Shown: in pieces, positions 20,054 through 48,360 of the stretch | Position numbering within the stretch: position 1 is the first letter of the stretch | Layout: each line of letters opens with the position of its first letter | NCBI GenBank assembly: GCA_963702005.1 | Contig: OY969696.1 | Coordinates: 3,552,001 to 3,616,000 of the forward strand | Direction: 5' to 3' | Origin: Candidatus Aminicenantes bacterium | Lineage (GTDB): Bacteria; Acidobacteriota; Aminicenantia; Aminicenantales; JAFGBC01 | Length of the DNA stretch: 64,000 bases | Position numbers and translations under genes: made by a program | The notes under the pieces: model-generated | Seen by the model: the letters and a program-made list of their open reading frames with translations, nothing else | What the model was told of the DNA's origin: nothing | Databases searched by the model: none

Positions 20054-20992
20054 TCAGCGCGCCAGGTATTTCCCGATCAGGGGCTTGAGGGCGGCCTTGG
20101 TCTTCCGCGGGATGAGGTCGGGCCGGGTCACGATCGTGTTTTTGAGCGCCGTCGCGCAGCCGCAGGCCGCTCCCCGCGCTTGGGGCAGGGCGGCCAGGGC
20201 TTTCTTGATGACGGCCTTGGCGTTTCCGATGTTGAGCTTAAGGTTATCCAGGATCATCTCGACCGTGACCGGCTCCTCCTCCTCGTGCCAGACGTCGTAG
20301 TCGGTAACGAGGTTCATGGTCGTGTAGCAGATCTCGGCCTCCCGGGACAGGCGGGCTTCGGTCGCGCCCGTCATCCCGATGACGGACCCTCCCCAGAGGC
20401 GATAGGCCTTGGATTCGGCTTTGGTCGAGAAGGCCGGACCCTCGATGCAGATATAGGTCCCGCCCAGGTGGGAGCGGAGGCCGAGGCCGCGGGCGGCTTC
20501 GTAGAGGGAGCGGGAAAGGTCGGCGCAAACGGGCTCGGCGAAGGAGATGTGGGCCGCGATTCCGTTTCCAAAGAATGTATTGGGCCGCCGCGTCCGGTCG
20601 AAGAATTGGCCGGCGAAGACGATATCCCGGGGCTCGATGTCCTCATTGAGGGACCCGACAGAGTTGACCGAGATGATGCGTCCGACGCCGAGAAGCTTGA
20701 ACCCGAAGATGTTGGCGCGGTAGTTGACCTCGGCCGGAAGGAAGCGATGGCCCCGGCCGTGGCGGCTCAGGAAGGCGACCCGCTTTCCCTCGAGCCTACC
20801 GATGATATAGGCGTCGGAAGGCCTCCCGAAGGGGGTCGAAAGCCTGACCTCCCGGATGTCCCGGATGCCCTCGATCTCGTAGAGGCCGGTCCCGCCCAGG
20901 ATGCCGATATCGGCACGGGGCGGAGGGGAGGGGCGGATGGCCGCCTTCCGGGAAGCGGTTTTATTATGAACTCTTGCCTTCGACTTGGCCAT
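20054..20992 (-). CDS. mtnP: S-methyl-5'-thioadenosine phosphorylase
   Basis: GILGGTGLY, TPFGRPSD, RHGRGH, EGPAFSTKAES, VTDYD. Confidence 0.9.
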   Translation of the reverse strand: MAKSKARVHNKTASRKAAIRPSPPPRADIGILGGTGLYEIEGIRDIREVRLSTPFGRPSDAYIIGRLEGKRVAFLSRHGRGHRFLPAEVNYRANIFGFKLLGVGRIISVNSVGSLNEDIEPRDIVFAGQFFDRTRRPNTFFGNGIAAHISFAEPVCADLSRSLYEAARGLGLRSHLGGTYICIEGPAFSTKAESKAYRLWGGSVIGMTGATEARLSREAEICYTTMNLVTDYDVWHEEEEPVTVEMILDNLKLNIGNAKAVIKKALAALPQARGAACGCATALKNTIVTRPDLIPRKTKAALKPLIGKYLAR

Positions 20993-21040
20993 GACGTTCC
21001 TCCTTGGACGAACCTAATCTATATAATGCCCGGGGAGGCC

Positions 21041-21087
21041 AAGTCAACCCCTCGACACTCATGGAAGCCCTGAGTGCTGCAAGGCTG
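21041..21087. repeat. Unoccupied copy of the IS110 target sequence
   Basis: AAGTCAACCCCTCGACA-CT-CATGGAAGCCCTGAGTGCTGCAAGGCTG matches the joined flanks of the IS at 31741-33038 at 44 of 47 positions. Confidence 0.85.
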
Positions 21088-21094
21088 CTGCCTG

Positions 21095-21192
21095 TCCCCG
21101 AAGCGGGGAATTCGCTACCGAAGCTCCGCACTTTGACTTCAGCAGCTCTGCGCTTCGCCAACGTCGGAGCGCCTGTCCCGCGAAGGGGATTG
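21095..21192. repeat. MITE-like segment related to 25347-25470
   Basis: Shared blocks TCCCCGAAGCGGGGAATTCGCTA, GGAGCGCCNGTCCC and TCCCGCGAAGGGGATT. Confidence 0.6.
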
Positions 21193-31017: not shown

Positions 31018-31662
31018 TTAGATATATTCTTCGAGGACGGAACGGGAGATCTGGCCGTCCCGCAGAATGCGGGGTTTCTCCCCGGTCAGGTCCAGTACGG
31101 TCGTCGCGAGCAGTCCCGGCGTCCGCCCGCCGTCCACGATCAGGTCTACGAGGCCGGCGAAGGCCCGCTTGACGTCCCTGGGGTCATAAAGTTCCTTTTC
31201 ACCGGAAATATTGGCGCTCGTCGCCGTGATCGGGGCCCCGAGGGCCTTGACGACCGCCCGAATCCAATCGACCTTGGGATAACGGATGCCGATGGTCCGG
31301 TCCGGACCGAGGATGTCGTCCGGGATGCCGGGAACGGCCCGAAGAATCAGGGTCAACGGCCCCGGCCAGAACCGGGATGCGATCGCTTTAAAAGCCGGGG
31401 GAGGCGGCTCGACAATGCGCCCGAACATGGCCAGGTCCGAGACTATGACCGAGACGGGTTTCCCGGGGTCGCGGCCCTTGAGCCGGAAGACGGCCTCGAC
31501 CGCGTCCTTGATGAGGGCGTGGGCGCCCAGCCCGTAAAAGGTCTCGGTCGGAAAGGCCATCAGGCCCCCTTTGCTGAGGACACCGACGATTTTCCCGACC
31601 TTGTCCGTCTCGACACGGTCGGGATCGACCTTGAGGATCGAGGTCTGCTTGTTCCTTTGCAT
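31018..31662 (-). CDS. tsaC: Threonylcarbamoyl-AMP synthase (TsaC/YrdC/Sua5 family)
   Basis: FPTETFYGL, K.R...KP, WPGPLT, TSANISG. Confidence 0.9.
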   Translation of the reverse strand: MQRNKQTSILKVDPDRVETDKVGKIVGVLSKGGLMAFPTETFYGLGAHALIKDAVEAVFRLKGRDPGKPVSVIVSDLAMFGRIVEPPPPAFKAIASRFWPGPLTLILRAVPGIPDDILGPDRTIGIRYPKVDWIRAVVKALGAPITATSANISGEKELYDPRDVKRAFAGLVDLIVDGGRTPGLLATTVLDLTGEKPRILRDGQISRSVLEEYI

Positions 31663-31789
31663 GGGTCCTGAGCCGGCGCTATCGGCCGGTATCTACAGGC
31701 ATATTAAGGGGTGGGGGATGTAAAAGTCAACCCATCGACACTTCTATGATGGCGAAACGCAAGCCCCGAGAGTCTTTTTTCTTATCTTC

Positions 31790-31930
31790 GTTCCTTATGG
31801 CTGCCTCGGTTTCTTGAACCACCCTTCTATCCGCGCCTCTAAGCGCACTGTAATATCCGGTCTCGGCTCCTAAACCTCATGGAGAACGCGACTCTCGCGA
31901 GTCCGTTAAGTGTCGTCCTAGGCAGCCGAT
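31790..31930 (-). ncRNA. Predicted bridge/seek RNA in the non-coding end downstream of the IS110 recombinase (ends approximate)
   Basis: Two stem-internal-loop units whose loop strands match the target (CGACACT, TCCATGAG) and the donor junction (ATATTAC, ATAGAAG). Confidence 0.8.
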
Positions 31931-32949
31931 CGATTCATGTCCGGGAGATACGTTCTTTTCTCGGTCAAGATGCGATAGATAATGGTCAGGAGCCGCCGCG
32001 CCACCGCGATCTTGGCCGCGTTCGGCCCCTTCCGCCTGGCCAGCCGGTTGTAGAGGACTCGAAGTCCTAGGTCTTTCTTGATCGCCGGATAGACCGCCTC
32101 CAGCGCCGCCCATCTCAGCCAGGCGCTCCCCTGTTTGGTGATCCGCCCATGATATGTCCGCTCTCCCGACGCATAGGTCGAAGGAATTACCCCGGCGTAG
32201 GAGTGAAGATGGGCCGGACTGGAAAACCGTTGGATATCCGCGATCTCCACCGCGACCAGTACCGCCAGCGTCGTGGCAAAACCCGGGATGCTGTCGATGC
32301 GGGAGGCCTCCTCGATCGTTCCATACAAGGCTTGGACCCTTCCATCCGACGCCTTGATATGAGCTTGGGTTTCTTGATGTCCCCGCAGAAGATCGTCCAA
32401 GACCATCTTGTCCGGTCCCTCCAAGGGAAGCCGGCTGAGGAACTCGATCCCGCGGCCGCTGAACAGCCCGCCCGTTCGCTTGTCCACCTCCAGCCGGATC
32501 TCTTCCTTCTGCTGAGCCAAGAGCGCCCGGATCTTGTTCTTGATTTCCGTCTGGATCCGAACCCAATAGGCCCGGGCTCTCAGCACTCTTTGCGCTTGCC
32601 GGTTCGCCTCGCCTCGTTGATAGATTTCCGGAATCAGGTCCGCCCGTAAAAGCTGGGCCAGTGTCCGGGAATCCCGCTTGTCCGTCTTGATCCGGGCATG
32701 GGCGATCGCTTTGACCTGAAGCGCATTCGCCATTTTCACCTCGCCGCCCAGTTCCCTGAGAAGATCCGCCATCACATAGGAGGACCGCCCAGCTTCGAGA
32801 ACGGCCGTGAACGGATGAAACCCCTTGAGGAAGGTCTCGACATTCCTCCTGAGGTTGAAGACGCGCCCCGTCTTCAGTTCCCGTCCGTCTTCGGCCAGAA
32901 CCGTCAGCTGAGAGGCTTGCTTGTGATGGTCGACACCGATAAAATACAT
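31918..32949 (-). CDS. IS110 family recombinase/transposase
   Basis: N-terminal DEDD RuvC-like domain (IGVD, LEA, KTDKRD); C-terminal SIPG...YAG..P...ASG catalytic Ser; AVARRL. Confidence 0.95.
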   Translation of the reverse strand: MYFIGVDHHKQASQLTVLAEDGRELKTGRVFNLRRNVETFLKGFHPFTAVLEAGRSSYVMADLLRELGGEVKMANALQVKAIAHARIKTDKRDSRTLAQLLRADLIPEIYQRGEANRQAQRVLRARAYWVRIQTEIKNKIRALLAQQKEEIRLEVDKRTGGLFSGRGIEFLSRLPLEGPDKMVLDDLLRGHQETQAHIKASDGRVQALYGTIEEASRIDSIPGFATTLAVLVAVEIADIQRFSSPAHLHSYAGVIPSTYASGERTYHGRITKQGSAWLRWAALEAVYPAIKKDLGLRVLYNRLARRKGPNAAKIAVARRLLTIIYRILTEKRTYLPDMNRSAA

Positions 32950-33310
32950 CTGCGCACCTCCTTAAAAGAATTTGAGTCGACGTGTAATCTATCACAGTAT
33001 TACCCGTCAGGGAGGTGCGTTTCGCTATCATGTTACCTCATGGAAGCCATAAGTGCTGCAAGGCTGGGCTTGTTCGGGGTTAACCCTGAGCCCACTCAGC
33101 CCCATTCCTTCAAAAAGGGCTGAGTACAAAAGTGTCGCATCTCATCCCCACCTTTTAGGGCGGGGTGGCGTCGGCGAATGGGTCAATGACCCCGGGGACA
33201 AGTGACCTGTTTCCGGGACAGCCCCCCGGCCTGCTTCCCTGGGGCCGGATATCATTAAATTGGCACGCAACTTGCAAAAAGCTATAATGAAGTCTCCAAG
33301 GAGGAACGAT

Positions 33311-46377: not shown

Positions 46378-48360
46378 ATGAATAAAAAGATGTTTTTACT
46401 TTGCGGCGTCTGGGCCTGCCTCGGTTTCATCGGACTGGGCGCGGTTTCCGACGACCCGCCTTTCTCTCCGCCCGCGGAATCGAGGACGGTCATCGGCCCT
46501 TACGGCGGGGATATCCGGGGCTTGGACGCCAACCCGGCCAACCCTAAGGAAATCTACGCCGTCTCCTACAACAGGGGGCAGGTCTTCCGTTCCACGAATT
46601 CCGGCGAAACCTGGACAAGCATCGCCGCCTTTGATTACGAGCTCTTCGATGTCGCCGCGGCTCCCTCCAACCCGAACGTCATCTATGCCCTGGGCAAAGA
46701 GAGAATTTTCAAGTCCAGCGACAAAGGGGCGACCTGGAAGGAGTACGAGTTCGGCACGCGGAGGTACGCCACAGGGCATATCATCATCCATGCCAAGGAC
46801 CCAAACGAGGTCTACGTCGCCGGCTACTTCCAGACGGACCCAAATCGAGGGGAGGCCACCTGCCCGGCCTTCCTTAAATCCCAAACCGGCGGGAAAACCT
46901 GGACGGTGACGAAAGTCAGCACGAATTCCCTCTCCGGCTCAATGACCTGCCTCGCCCTGTCCAAGAAGCATCCCGCCGTTTTCTATGCCGGCACGACATG
47001 GCGGAATGCCTTCTATAAATACTATTATGGGTTTTGTCGGAGCGACGACGGCGGCCAGAGCTGGAAGGACATCTCGCCCGCCCTGGACGGCGCCGCGTGT
47101 GATGCGGCGGTCGATCCCGACGATCCCACCCGCGTCTTCCTGGCCGCTAGTACGACCATCTGGCGCAGTGAGAACGGCGGATCGAGCTGGGCGACGACAA
47201 AACTCCAGCCTTTAACGGCTTTGGGCATGAATCCCGCCCTCCCCCAAGTCCTCTATGCCGGAGGCTCCGGGCTGATCTACAGGAGCCTGGACGGAGGGCT
47301 CCACTGGACCCAGCCCCAGGCGTGCGGCGGTTCGGCCCAGGACTTTCTGTTCGGGTCCAGCCGGGTCCTAGCGGCTACTTCAAACGGCATTTTTAGGAGC
47401 GACAACAGCGGATCATCCTGGAAGGCCAGCCATCAGGGCTTGAGCGCCATGAACATCACGACCCTGGCCGCCGCCCCTTCCTCCTCCCAGGTCCTCTACA
47501 CAGCCGTCAGCGGCTGCGGATTGTACAGATCCGGCAACGGAGGAAAAACCTGGTTGAGGACGGGGACGGGGTCGCCCTGCGATAATATTATAAGTCTCGC
47601 CGTGTGCCCGGAAAATCCCGATTGGCTCTTCGCGACCGCCTCCGGTTGAAGCAATTATGGCGTCTACAGTTCTGTAGACGGCGGAAAGAAGATGCAGCGT
47701 CTGTCGAGTATTCTCGTCTATGCCCTGACCATCAGCCCAAAATCATCTCAAGTCATTTACGGACTGGGCTATGGGATTAAATTCTATAAGAGCTCGGACG
47801 GAGGGAAGTCCTGGGTAACCCGCGTTCTCGGAAACCAGACGTACCAAAACGCCTTGGCTCTTGATCCCGAGAATGAAAACATCATCTATATTGGCGGTTT
47901 CCACTGGACAGCATCCCTTGCGGCGCGACGAAAGGGGCGCGACCGATCCGGGTGGACGGCGGTTGTCTTTAAGAGCACGAATGGCGGACAGGCCTGGAGC
48001 GGAATCACCGGGAAGATCAAAGGGACCCGGCTTTATGCGCTCGCGGTCGATCCCAAGACGCCGTCCCGGGTTTTCGCCGGAACCGATCTCGGCCTCTACA
48101 GAAGCGAAAACTCCGGCGCGAGTTGGACCGAAGTCCTCAAGGCCGATATCAATAGCGTGAAGGTCATTTCCTCCAATCCGAAAGCCGTCTACGCCGGCGG
48201 CCCTTCGGGCCTTTATCTCAGCCTGGACAGCGGCAAGACCTGGACGAAATCCGTCGAAGGGATGACGTCCAAATACGTCCAGTGTCTTGACGCGGACAAG
48301 GCCCAGAAGACGATTTACGTTGGAACTTACGGAGGGAGTATCCTCAAGATCCGGCGCTGA
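46378..48360 (+). CDS. Secreted BNR/Asp-box beta-propeller protein with in-frame TGA (47647-47649), predicted selenoprotein, paralogue 2 (660 aa, Sec424)
   Basis: ORFs 46378-47649 and 47692-48360 are in frame; the linker reads *SNYGVYSSVDGGKKM; same TGA position and hairpin as paralogue 1. Confidence 0.8.
47661..47680 (+). promoter_or_regulatory. Bacterial SECIS-like hairpin
   Basis: CGTCTACA-GTTC-TGTAGACG, 11 nt downstream of the TGA; stem identical to paralogue 1. Confidence 0.78.

What the first reader, a model, noticed from the sequence alone, without database searches (positions are those of the whole stretch)
31741..33038. IS110/IS1111 bridge recombinase whose RNA guides can be decoded from the window
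Seen: CT core duplicated at both ends and 16-bp subterminal inverted repeats. On the minus strand right after the stop codon is an internal loop CGACACT (31915-31909), hairpin, TCCATGAG (31883-31876), matching the left target (CGACA-CT) and the reverse complement of the right target (CT-CATGGA). It is closed by a stem that overlaps the last codons. A second loop ATATTAC (31856-31850), hairpin, ATAGAAG (31830-31824) matches the circle junction ATGTTAC-CT-TCTAT (6/7 and 7/7). Established: IS110 recombinases use a bispecific bridge/seek RNA, located downstream of the gene in IS1111-type elements. Inference: a complete, probably active, programmable orthologue with long target guides.
Basis: partly seen in the sequence, partly recalled or inferred. 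Interest (0 to 1): 0.75.

Follow-up and report, generated by a model that had tools for sequence, protein, structure and literature searches.

The report
IS1111-type insertion sequence with bridge RNA
This is an intact mobile DNA element of a known family that carries its own small guide RNA, and the RNA's guide letters do match the element's insertion site and its own ends.

Summary
Window 31741-33038 is an intact 1,298-bp IS110-family element of the IS1111 type. It has a 343-aa DEDD/Ser recombinase on the minus strand, 16-nt subterminal inverted repeats and a long non-coding region downstream of the gene. That region encodes an RNA of about 120-134 nt with two guide loops.

Loop 1 carries CGACACU and UCCAUGAG, the two halves of the insertion site. 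An unoccupied copy of the site, with a single CT, lies at 21053-21065. In 11 related elements with other flanks, these two blocks are hypervariable and match each element's own flanks. The count is 109 of 154 positions against about 50 expected, and 0 of 200,000 permutations reach it.

Loop 2 matches the element's own ends. It co-varies with the ends in a Rhizobiales clade that is 41% identical, whose RNA a covariance model recovers (E 2e-10 to 3e-7).

The closing stem over the last codons has compensatory changes, but it competes with an equally conserved long-range helix. "Long guides" is not supported: the site is 13 bp. RNA expression and activity are untested. This is a new member of a known kind.

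The parts
31741..33038 (-). Whole IS element, 1,298 bp, counted with a CT (AG on the gene strand) at each end
   Evidence: Twelve related elements align end to end at positions 1-1298 and lose similarity exactly at these ends. The unoccupied site is at 21040-21087.
31918..32949 (-). Recombinase gene, 343 aa, ATG start preceded by AAGGAGGTG
   Evidence: ORF. Pfam PF01548 and PF02371. NCBIfam NF033542 at 195.6 bits. PDB relatives are ISCro4 9t56 and IS621 8wt6, and the D, E, D..D and SG motifs are aligned.
33016..33031 (.). Subterminal inverted repeat, arm at the gene-upstream end
   Evidence: I3: 16 nt, 94% complementary to 31746-31761.
31746..31761 (.). Subterminal inverted repeat, arm at the gene-downstream end
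   Evidence: I3.
31797..31930 (-). Predicted bridge/seek RNA region: target loop module 31930-31865, donor loop module 31864-31816, 3' strand of the long-range helix 31806-31799
   Evidence: This is the conserved scaffold in 15 relatives. Covariance model R1 recovers the homologous RNA in 9 Rhizobiales elements, with E from 1.9e-10 to 2.8e-7.
31909..31915 (-). 5' target guide CGACA+CU. It is identical to the + strand left half-site plus core, so it would pair with the opposite strand.
   Evidence: Column entropy is 1.68 bits against 0.03-0.5 in the scaffold. In 11 relatives it matches the element's own right flank at 60 of 77 positions.
31885..31907 (-). Apical hairpin of the target loop
   Evidence: Three pairs have compensatory changes.
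31876..31883 (-). 3' target guide UCCAUG+AG. It is the reverse complement of + strand CT+CATGGA.
   Evidence: Entropy is 1.24 bits. It matches the element's own left flank at 49 of 77 positions.
31874..31875 (-). GU after the 3' target guide. It is complementary to the last two bases (AC) of the element end next to the core, so it is a possible handshake guide.
   Evidence: Exact 10-mer repeat, D13. It is invariant in the clade, but the position reads AA in the Rhizobiales clade. This reading is an inference.
31919..31929 (-). 5' strand shared by two alternative helices (UCGGCU-G-CCUA). It overlaps the last codons and the stop codon.
31863..31872 (-). 3' strand of the local closing stem (UAGGAGCCGA)
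   Evidence: In the 119-nt fold the MFE uses this stem. Covariation at columns 6-81 is CG:15, UA:5.
31850..31856 (-). 5' donor guide AUAUUAC, 6 of 7 against ATGTTAC of the element end. It is followed by AG, not by a core complement.
31832..31847 (-). Apical hairpin of the donor loop
   Evidence: Two pairs have compensatory changes.
31824..31830 (-). 3' donor guide AUAGA+AG, 7 of 7 with the other element end plus core
   Evidence: 7 of 7 in 16 of 17 rows. In the Rhizobiales clade the guide becomes AUUGGAG together with the end.
31799..31806 (-). 3' strand of the long-range helix (AGGCAGCC) that pairs with GGCUGCCU at 31927-31920
   Evidence: I12. Chosen by RNAalifold and by the MFE of the 134-nt RNA. 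At least 6 contiguous pairs in 19 of 22 RNAs.
21040..21087 (+). Unoccupied copy of the target motif; the 13-bp site is at 21053-21065
31701..31730 (-). Host promoter-like site TTGACT-18-TAATAT, 10 bp outside the element end and upstream of the Sua5/YrdC gene

Best explanation
Window 31741-33038 is an intact insertion sequence of the IS110 family, IS1111 type. Its recombinase is a DEDD RuvC-like domain plus a Tnp domain with the SG serine. The recombinase would work with an RNA made from the 177-nt non-coding region downstream of the gene.

The RNA has two modules with the same plan: closing stem, 5' guide, hairpin, 3' guide, two further bases, U, closing stem.
- **Module 1, the target loop.** CGACA+CU would pair with one strand of the left half-site plus core. 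UCCAUG+AG would pair with the other strand of core plus right half-site. Together they specify CGACA-CT-CATGGA.
- **Module 2, the donor loop.** AUAUUAC and AUAGA+AG would read the two element ends as joined in the excised circle.

Recombination at the shared CT then inserts the element without a target duplication.

Read with CT as the top strand, the layout is that of IS621: left guide 5', pairing with the bottom strand, and right guide 3', pairing with the top strand. Read on the gene strand, it is the order reported for IS1111 seekRNAs.

The target is a repeated 47-bp intergenic motif that abuts the -35 box of host promoters.

Shown here: the anatomy, the matches, the covariation of guides with flanks and ends, and the conservation of the scaffold. 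Inferred: that the RNA is made, that it binds the recombinase and directs recombination, and that this copy is active.
For: **Protein family.**

**IS1111-type anatomy.**
- The subterminal repeat is 16 nt.
- The non-coding stretch is 89 nt upstream of the gene and 177 nt downstream.
- The protein is 343 aa with the motif G-V-I-P-S-T-Y-A-S-G. PMC11187229 section 6 describes 330-350 aa and GL-P----S(t)G.

**Unoccupied site.** It has one CT.

**Same target used repeatedly.** Three more contig-end copies in another genome (L021, L023, L026) sit next to the same half-site ...GGCTTCCATG|AG.

**Natural retargeting.**
- 13 full-length relatives share the termini AG|GTA(A/G)CATGAT...ATCATAGA|AG but have different flanks.
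- Two were dropped because they carry duplicate guides, leaving 11. Their guide blocks match their own flanks at 60 of 77 positions (5' guide) and 49 of 77 (3' guide).
- Matches to other elements' flanks average about 2 of 7.
- 0 of 200,000 permutations reach the observed totals.
- The guide blocks are the only hypervariable columns in the RNA.

**Donor loop.**
- The 3' guide equals the element end plus core in 16 of 17 rows.
- The 5' guide matches the other end at 5-7 of 7 positions.
- In the Rhizobiales clade both guides change together with the ends: ACGCCAC with GTGGCAT, and AUUGGAG with ATTGG+AG.

**RNA homology and structure.**
- Model R1 hits 9 of 9 Rhizobiales loci at the expected place.
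- On A5, 98.1% of cells are paired, 69 cells have changes on both sides against 26.0 +/- 3.9 in shuffles, and 0 of 500 shuffles reach this. Slid controls give at most 13 cells.

**Published rules.** Passages of PMC11208158 and PMC11208160, and sections 9, 10 and 12 of PMC11187229.
Against: **Expression.**
- No expression data exist for this RNA.
- No sigma-70-like promoter is found inside the element.
- The circle-junction candidate TTGCGT-17-TAACAT has only 7 of 12 matches and falls below the scan threshold.
- No Rfam family matches.

**Imperfect guide matches.**
- Some relatives fit poorly. The L001 3' guide matches 2 of 7 non-core positions. L002, L008 and L009 match 3 of 7, and the L014 5' guide matches 3 of 7.
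- The 5' donor guide is followed by AG, GG or AC rather than a core complement.
- The 5' donor guide also carries a C opposite A at its second position in 10 of 17 rows.

**Structure statistics.**
- On A5 the number of pairs with a change on both sides (9) is not above the shuffles (mean 8.0; 165 of 500 reach it). Only the cell count and the covariation score are above them.
- The A3 and A5 alignments were fitted to the tested structure.

**Copy number.** Only one copy lies in the window.
Confidence: 0.85

Rival explanations
1. Only a target-seeking RNA is functional. On this view the first module alone acts, like the short seekRNA. The second loop is scaffold or a protein-binding element, and its likeness to the element ends is incidental. 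The ends would be recognised by the protein through the subterminal repeats and by the flanking target halves.
For: - In PMC11187229 (section 10) the 82-nt short seekRNA of ISEc11 was enough for transposition of a mini-IS flanked by target sequence.
- The 5' donor guide here is imperfect (6 of 7), has no core pairing, and has a recurrent C-A mismatch in relatives.
Against: - Both donor guides change together with the ends between the two clades.
- The 3' donor guide equals end plus core in 16 of 17 rows.
- The two modules have the same plan.
- PMC11208160 (passage) reports donor-complementary loops in IS1111 elements.
Confidence: 0.1
2. The anatomy is right, but this copy is a resident that no longer moves. 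The guides can be decoded, yet the RNA or the protein is not made or is defective.
For: - There is a single copy in 64 kb.
- A second perfect target at 21053-21065 is unoccupied.
- No internal promoter was predicted.
- The Shine-Dalgarno sequence can be sequestered by a 9-bp helix in the 5' leader.
Against: - The ORF is open and full length, with the catalytic motifs.
- Both termini are identical to those of relatives.
- Relatives include copy pairs at different loci that are 99.0% and 99.9% identical.
- A fragment (L026) that is 97.7% identical lies at the same half-site in another genome.
Confidence: 0.2
3. The matches are not RNA guides. They are chance repeats or DNA-level sites, such as remnants of target sequence or protein-binding repeats.
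For: None beyond the lack of expression data.
Against: - 0 of 20,000 shuffles give the pair of matches.
- The guide blocks track different flanks in 11 relatives.
- The surrounding helices keep pairing through changes on both sides.
Confidence: 0.02

Closest known systems
IS1111-family elements with seekRNA: ISEc11, ISKpn4, ISPa11, ISPst6 (Siddiquee et al. 2024, PMC11187229; sections 6, 9, 10, 12 and 13 read)
   Same: - The long non-coding region lies downstream of the gene.
- There are subterminal inverted repeats.
- The transposase is 330-350 aa with the GxxPxxxxSG motif.
- There are two short target matches, and the one complementary to the gene-strand (top) side lies 5' of the other.
- Close relatives are naturally retargeted through the guide blocks.
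- The short and long RNA forms have sizes comparable to module 1 alone and to both modules.
   Different: - The protein is only 23% identical to ISKpn4.
- Model R1 does not detect the ISKpn4 RNA.
- The target is a promoter-proximal repeat of an uncultured lineage, not attC, REP or Tn21 ends.
- A donor loop is evident here, whereas that paper did not need one in its assays.
IS621 bridge RNA (Durrant et al. 2024, PMC11208160; Hiraizumi et al. 2024, PMC11208158; passages read)
   Same: - The RNA is bispecific, with a target loop and a donor loop.
- Each loop has a 5' guide for the bottom strand of the left half and a 3' guide for the top strand of core plus right half, when CT is read as the top strand.
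- The core is CT.
- Two further bases after the right guide could act as handshake guides.
- The catalytic residues are DEDD plus Ser.
   Different: - The RNA lies downstream of the gene, and gene and RNA are antisense to the CT-top orientation.
- The subterminal repeats are 16 nt instead of 2-3 nt.
- The guides are 7 and 8 nt against 9 and 4 nt.
- The 5' donor guide does not pair with the core.
- The protein match to IS621 is weak (E 1.3e-8, best stretch residues 217-329 of the query).
Unnamed IS110-family elements of Rhizobium, Ensifer, Afipia, Aminobacter and Neorhizobium plasmids (L027, L028, L034-L040)
   Same: - The transposase is 41% identical.
- The 3' RNA is homologous (E 1.9e-10 to 2.8e-7), with the same two-module plan and the same two alternative helices.
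- The termini follow the same plan: AG|GTGGCATGA...TTCATTGG|AG.
   Different: - The donor guides and ends differ.
- The two bases after both 3' guides are AA.
- These elements insert into AAGG|AG sites that look like ribosome-binding sites.

Membership tests
IS110 family (DEDD transposase elements) | N-terminal DEDD RuvC-like domain plus C-terminal Transposase_20 domain | tested here: met
   PF01548 E 9.8e-16 and PF02371 E 6.1e-19. NF033542 'IS110 family RNA-guided transposase' scores 195.6 bits against a cut-off of 140.
IS110 family (DEDD transposase elements) | Catalytic D, E, D, D and the serine of the SG motif | tested here: met
   In the phmmer alignment to ISCro4 (9t56), figvD, lEAg, ktDkrDs and yaSGe align with the conserved motifs. 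The residue roles come from PMC11208158. The mapping is by motif, not by structure.
IS110 family (DEDD transposase elements) | Insertion without target duplication; a shared core dinucleotide at both junctions | tested here: met
   The unoccupied site at 21053-21065 has one CT. The occupied site has CT at both junctions.
IS1111 group | Subterminal inverted repeats of 7-17 bp | tested here: met
   16 nt with 15 of 16 complementary, set back 5 and 7 nt from the element ends as counted here. The criterion comes from PMC11208160.
IS1111 group | Longer non-coding region downstream of the gene | tested here: met
   89 nt upstream against 177 nt downstream. The criterion comes from PMC11187229 section 6.
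IS1111 group | Transposase of 330-350 aa with the GL-P----S(t)G motif | tested here: met
   The protein is 343 aa and carries GVIPSTYASG, with V in place of L.
IS1111 group | Transposase groups with IS1111 members in a phylogeny | not tested
   No tree was built. ISKpn4 is 23% identical over 98% of the protein and IS621 matches in part, which does not discriminate. No set of reference proteins of both groups was at hand.
Bridge RNA / seekRNA | Two guide segments in one loop, complementary to opposite strands of the two target halves and overlapping at the core | tested here: met
   Covariation with flanks in 11 relatives, with 0 of 200,000 permutations reaching the observed total.
Bridge RNA / seekRNA | A second loop complementary to the joined element ends (bispecific bridge RNA) | tested here: met
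   Guides and ends change together between clades. One weak point is that the 5' guide does not pair with the core.
Bridge RNA / seekRNA | Conserved stem-loop scaffold supported by covariation | tested here: met
   The caveats are that the alignments were fitted to the model and that two alternative closing helices exist.
Bridge RNA / seekRNA | Match to published covariance models of bridge RNAs | not testable with these tools
   Rfam 15 gave no match. The models of Durrant et al. are not in any library held here.
Bridge RNA / seekRNA | The RNA is expressed, binds the recombinase and is needed for recombination | not testable with these tools
   This needs RNA sequencing, a pull-down and a recombination assay.

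The most novel reading that the evidence does not exclude
The RNA may have a built-in conformational switch. The 5' strand at the stop codon (UCGGCU-G-CCUA) can pair locally with UAGGAGCCGA, which closes the target loop as in the short seekRNA form. Alternatively it can pair with AGGCAGCC about 120 nt downstream, which closes the whole RNA into a multi-loop.

Both helices are kept in two clades whose proteins are only 41% identical. The local helix is kept through C-G to U-A exchanges. The long-range helix is kept through an added U-A pair. The choice would depend on where the RNA's 3' end lies, which would couple processing from the long to the short form with readiness of the target loop.
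Probability: 0.2. Interest if true: 0.5.

Novelty: new member of a known kind. Interest (0 to 1): 0.3.

Why it matters
Bridge/seek RNA recombinases are being developed as programmable genome-rearrangement tools. This locus adds a divergent IS1111-type orthologue from an uncultured lineage; its relatives are in Candidatus Aminicenantes genomes.

It comes with a ready natural series: 11 related elements with the same scaffold, the same ends and different guide-target pairs. The series shows which RNA positions are programmable and how many mismatches nature tolerates.

It also shows that the IS621 guide layout holds in an IS1111-type element once the core is read as CT. None of this is surprising to a specialist, because the kind of system and its location downstream of the gene are already published.

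Tried and rejected
- **Rfam.** There was no meaningful match in 31500-33300 at E up to 10; two weak matches at E 2.5 and 4.6 are unrelated to the RNA. Nothing reached gathering score in the whole window.
- **Circle-junction promoter.** No site reached 8 of 12 matches. The best was TTGCGT-17-TAACAT at 7 of 12, so I do not claim a junction promoter.
- **Choosing between closing helices with close relatives only.** Adding the Rhizobiales clade supported both helices rather than one.
- **Reach of model R1.** It found nothing at E up to 1 in L017, L018, L020, L029 (ISKpn4) and L030-L033, whose proteins are 23-42% identical.
- **Sigma-54 reading of the target motif.** I rejected it by eye because the GG-to-GC spacing is one base too long. 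No tool was used for this.
- **Handshake reading of the two bases after each 3' guide.** I keep it only as a weak inference. GU fits the donor in this clade. The Rhizobiales clade has AA there, which fits the target instead.
- **Rows left out.**
  - The permutation test used 11 of the 13 full-length elements. L009 and L013 were dropped because they carry the same guides as L008 and L012.
  - L003, L005, L011, L015 and L017-L026 were not in that test, because they lack one or both ends or are too distant.
- **Not checked.**
  - No supplementary files of either paper were opened, and figures are not held. So the published IS1111 bridge RNA drawings could not be compared directly.
- **In print.** A search for papers holding both 'Aminicenantes' and 'IS110' found none.
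Full report
**1. What is in the sequence**

- CT lies at 31741-31742 and at 33037-33038.
- A 343-aa ORF lies on the minus strand at 31918-32949.
- The inverted repeat is 31746-31761 / 33016-33031, 16 nt with 15 complementary (I3).
- On the minus strand, downstream of the stop codon (31920-31918), lie CGACACT (31915-31909), TCCATGAG (31883-31876), ATATTAC (31856-31850) and ATAGAAG (31830-31824).
- The right-hand match is really an exact 10-mer, ACCTCATGGA, shared by 31874-31883 and 33035-33044 (D13).
- None of 20,000 dinucleotide shuffles of the 175-nt non-coding region gave both target matches.

**2. The protein and the element**

The ORF has the two Pfam domains of IS110-family transposases. 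It passes the NCBIfam model 'IS110 family RNA-guided transposase' at 195.6 bits against a cut-off of 140. Its solved relatives are the ISCro4 and IS621 recombinases. In the printed alignment the motifs that hold the catalytic D, E, D, D and the SG serine are aligned (residue roles from passages of PMC11208158).

The layout is that of the IS1111 group as described in PMC11187229 section 6 and PMC11208160 (passages).
- The subterminal repeats are long.
- The leader is short (89 nt) and the downstream non-coding region is long (177 nt).
- The protein is 343 aa with GVIPSTYASG.

I did not build a tree, so placement in that group rests on these features.

**3. The target, and proof that one CT belongs to the site**

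The 13-mer CGACACTCATGGA occurs once more in the window, at 21053-21065. It sits inside a 47-bp stretch (21040-21087) that equals the joined flanks of the element apart from three substitutions. The site before insertion therefore has one CT and there is no duplication, as expected for this family.

Both copies of the motif lie directly upstream of a TTGACT -35 box of a minus-strand gene. One gene is a PNP_UDP_1 family gene at 20054-20992 and the other is a Sua5/YrdC gene at 31018-31662. The insertion leaves the promoter hexamers of the Sua5/YrdC gene intact, 10 bp outside the element.

**4. Relatives, and the test of the guides**

A scan of one genome per species found 26 loci, mostly in Candidatus Aminicenantes assemblies.
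- Twelve align to the element end to end. They share the termini AG|GTA(A/G)CATGAT ... ATCATAGA|AG but have unrelated flanks.
- Three contig-end fragments in one genome (L021, L023, L026; 84-98% identical over 131-229 nt) stop next to ...GGCTTCCATG|AG. This is the same half-site as in the window, in different wider contexts.
- In the aligned non-coding regions the scaffold is nearly invariant.
- Each element's blocks match its own flanks. The 5' block equals the reverse complement of core plus right flank at 60 of 77 non-core positions. The 3' block equals left flank plus core at 49 of 77.
- Matches to other elements' flanks average about 2 of 7, and 0 of 200,000 permutations reach the observed totals.
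- The permutation test used 11 of the 13 full-length elements. L009 and L013 were dropped as duplicates of L008 and L012.
- The fit is not uniform. The L001 3' guide matches 2 of 7, L002, L008 and L009 match 3 of 7, and the L014 5' guide matches 3 of 7.

**5. The donor loop**

ATAGAAG equals the last five bases of the element plus core in 16 of 17 rows. The 5' guide matches the reverse complement of the first seven bases of the other end at 5-7 of 7 positions. It is followed by AG, GG or AC, not by a core complement. It also has C opposite A at its second position in 10 of 17 rows, so the effective pairing may be only about five bases.

The decisive evidence comes from a distant clade.
- tblastn against plasmids found elements in Rhizobium, Ensifer, Afipia, Aminobacter and Neorhizobium whose transposases are 41% identical.
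- A covariance model built from the Aminicenantes RNAs hit 9 of 9 of these loci over its full length, at the end of the gene, with E from 1.9e-10 to 2.8e-7.
- In this clade the ends are GTGGCAT... and ...ATTGG+AG, and the guides read ACGCCAC and AUUGGAG. Both donor guides have changed together with the ends.
- The model found nothing in ISKpn4 or in five other loci at 23-42% identity.

**6. Secondary structure**

The two apical hairpins are supported by compensatory changes.

For the closing stem there are two candidates that use the same 5' strand at the stop codon.
This is UCGGCU-G-CCUA with UAGGAGCCGA. It is the minimum-energy fold when the RNA ends at 31812. In the 22-RNA alignment it has four pairs with changes on both sides. 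One of them, columns 6-81, switches between C-G (15 rows) and U-A (5 rows) within the Rhizobiales clade, in ungapped conserved blocks.
- **Long-range helix.** This is GGCUGCCU with AGGCAGCC at 31806-31799. RNAalifold picks it, and so does the fold of the 134-nt RNA (-50.2 kcal/mol, z -3.36). It is kept as GCUGUCCUG with CAGGACAGC in the other clade, that is, with one added U-A pair. At least 6 contiguous pairs are present in 19 of 22 RNAs.

The whole-structure statistics on A5 are as follows.
- 98.1% of cells are paired.
- 69 cells have changes on both sides, against 26.0 +/- 3.9 in shuffles, and 0 of 500 shuffles reach this.
- The count of such pairs (9) is not above the shuffles (mean 8.0; 165 of 500 reach it).
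- The alignment was fitted to the tested structure.

PMC11208160 (passage) notes multi-loop predictions for many IS1111 bridge RNAs. PMC11187229 reports short and long RNA forms (table in PMC13604230). Both fit this picture.

**7. How it most likely works**

Read with CT as the top strand, the RNA repeats the IS621 scheme given in PMC11208158. The 5' guide of each loop is identical to the left half and so pairs with the bottom strand. The 3' guide is complementary to core plus right half on the top strand. Read on the gene strand, it gives the order stated for IS1111 seekRNAs: the top-strand match lies 5' of the bottom-strand match (PMC11187229 section 9).

The GU after the 3' target guide is complementary to the two donor bases next to the core. 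This is what an IS621-type handshake guide would do. However, the position is invariant in this clade and reads AA in the other clade, where it fits the target instead, so I hold this reading loosely.

That the RNA is transcribed, processed, bound and used is an inference. No promoter was predicted inside the element, and the junction candidate is weak.

**8. Activity**

The gene, both ends and all guides are intact. Within single relatives' genomes there are copy pairs that are 99.0% (L008/L009) and 99.9% (L012/L013) identical at different loci. So the clade has moved recently. For this particular copy nothing more can be said.

**9. Comparison and novelty**

This is a new, divergent member of a published kind. 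Its protein is 23% identical to ISKpn4 and gives only a weak, partial match to IS621. The guides cover 13 bp (7 and 8 nt with the shared core), against 9 and 4 nt in natural IS621, so 'long target guides' holds only for the right side.

A search for papers with both 'Aminicenantes' and 'IS110' found none. Large surveys of IS110 orthologues exist, though, and their supplements were not seen.

Noticed in passing
window 21040-21087 and the flanks of the element (31722-31740, 33039-33070): A 47-bp intergenic motif is present twice in the window, once occupied by the element and once empty. Each copy abuts the TTGACT -35 box of a minus-strand gene. On the gene strand it can form a hairpin (GCACUYA, 9-nt loop, UGAGUGU) with the recombination core inside the 3' arm. 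Its function is unknown.
   Followed up: partly
window 33019-33011 and 32961-32953 (minus strand): In the leader of the recombinase mRNA, CGCACCUCC can pair with GGAGGUGCG. This would sequester the Shine-Dalgarno sequence (MFE -24.9 kcal/mol, z -2.16). Both arms are unchanged in 12 of 14 aligned relatives and there is no compensatory change. It may be a block on translation of read-through transcripts.
   Followed up: partly
L027, L028, L034-L039 (plasmid loci of Rhizobiales): All eight elements whose left end was located have a left flank ending in ...GG before the AG core, giving sites such as AAGG|AG. Most have an ATG 6-10 nt into the right flank. This clade therefore seems to insert into ribosome-binding sites.
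   Followed up: partly
window 31919-31929 with 31863-31872 or with 31799-31806: Two mutually exclusive helices share one 5' strand, and both are conserved in two distant clades.
   Followed up: partly
L011:1441-2567: This is a decayed relative. It has an internal deletion that removes about 180 nt including the start of the gene, a terminal GG instead of AG, and a right flank that fits its guide only with a 3-nt gap.
   Followed up: no
window 33062-33101: A 22-nt imperfect palindrome lies directly beside the target motif (I2). A different hairpin-forming stretch lies at the same place beside the empty copy, at about 21093-21110.
   Followed up: no
window 1-64000: No Rfam family reaches its gathering score anywhere in the 64-kb window.
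   Followed up: no
window 46412-46463 (minus strand): A weak, fragmentary hit of model R1 (9.2 bits, E 1.6) shares GAAACCGAGGCAGG with the RNA's 3' tail. It is probably chance.
   Followed up: no
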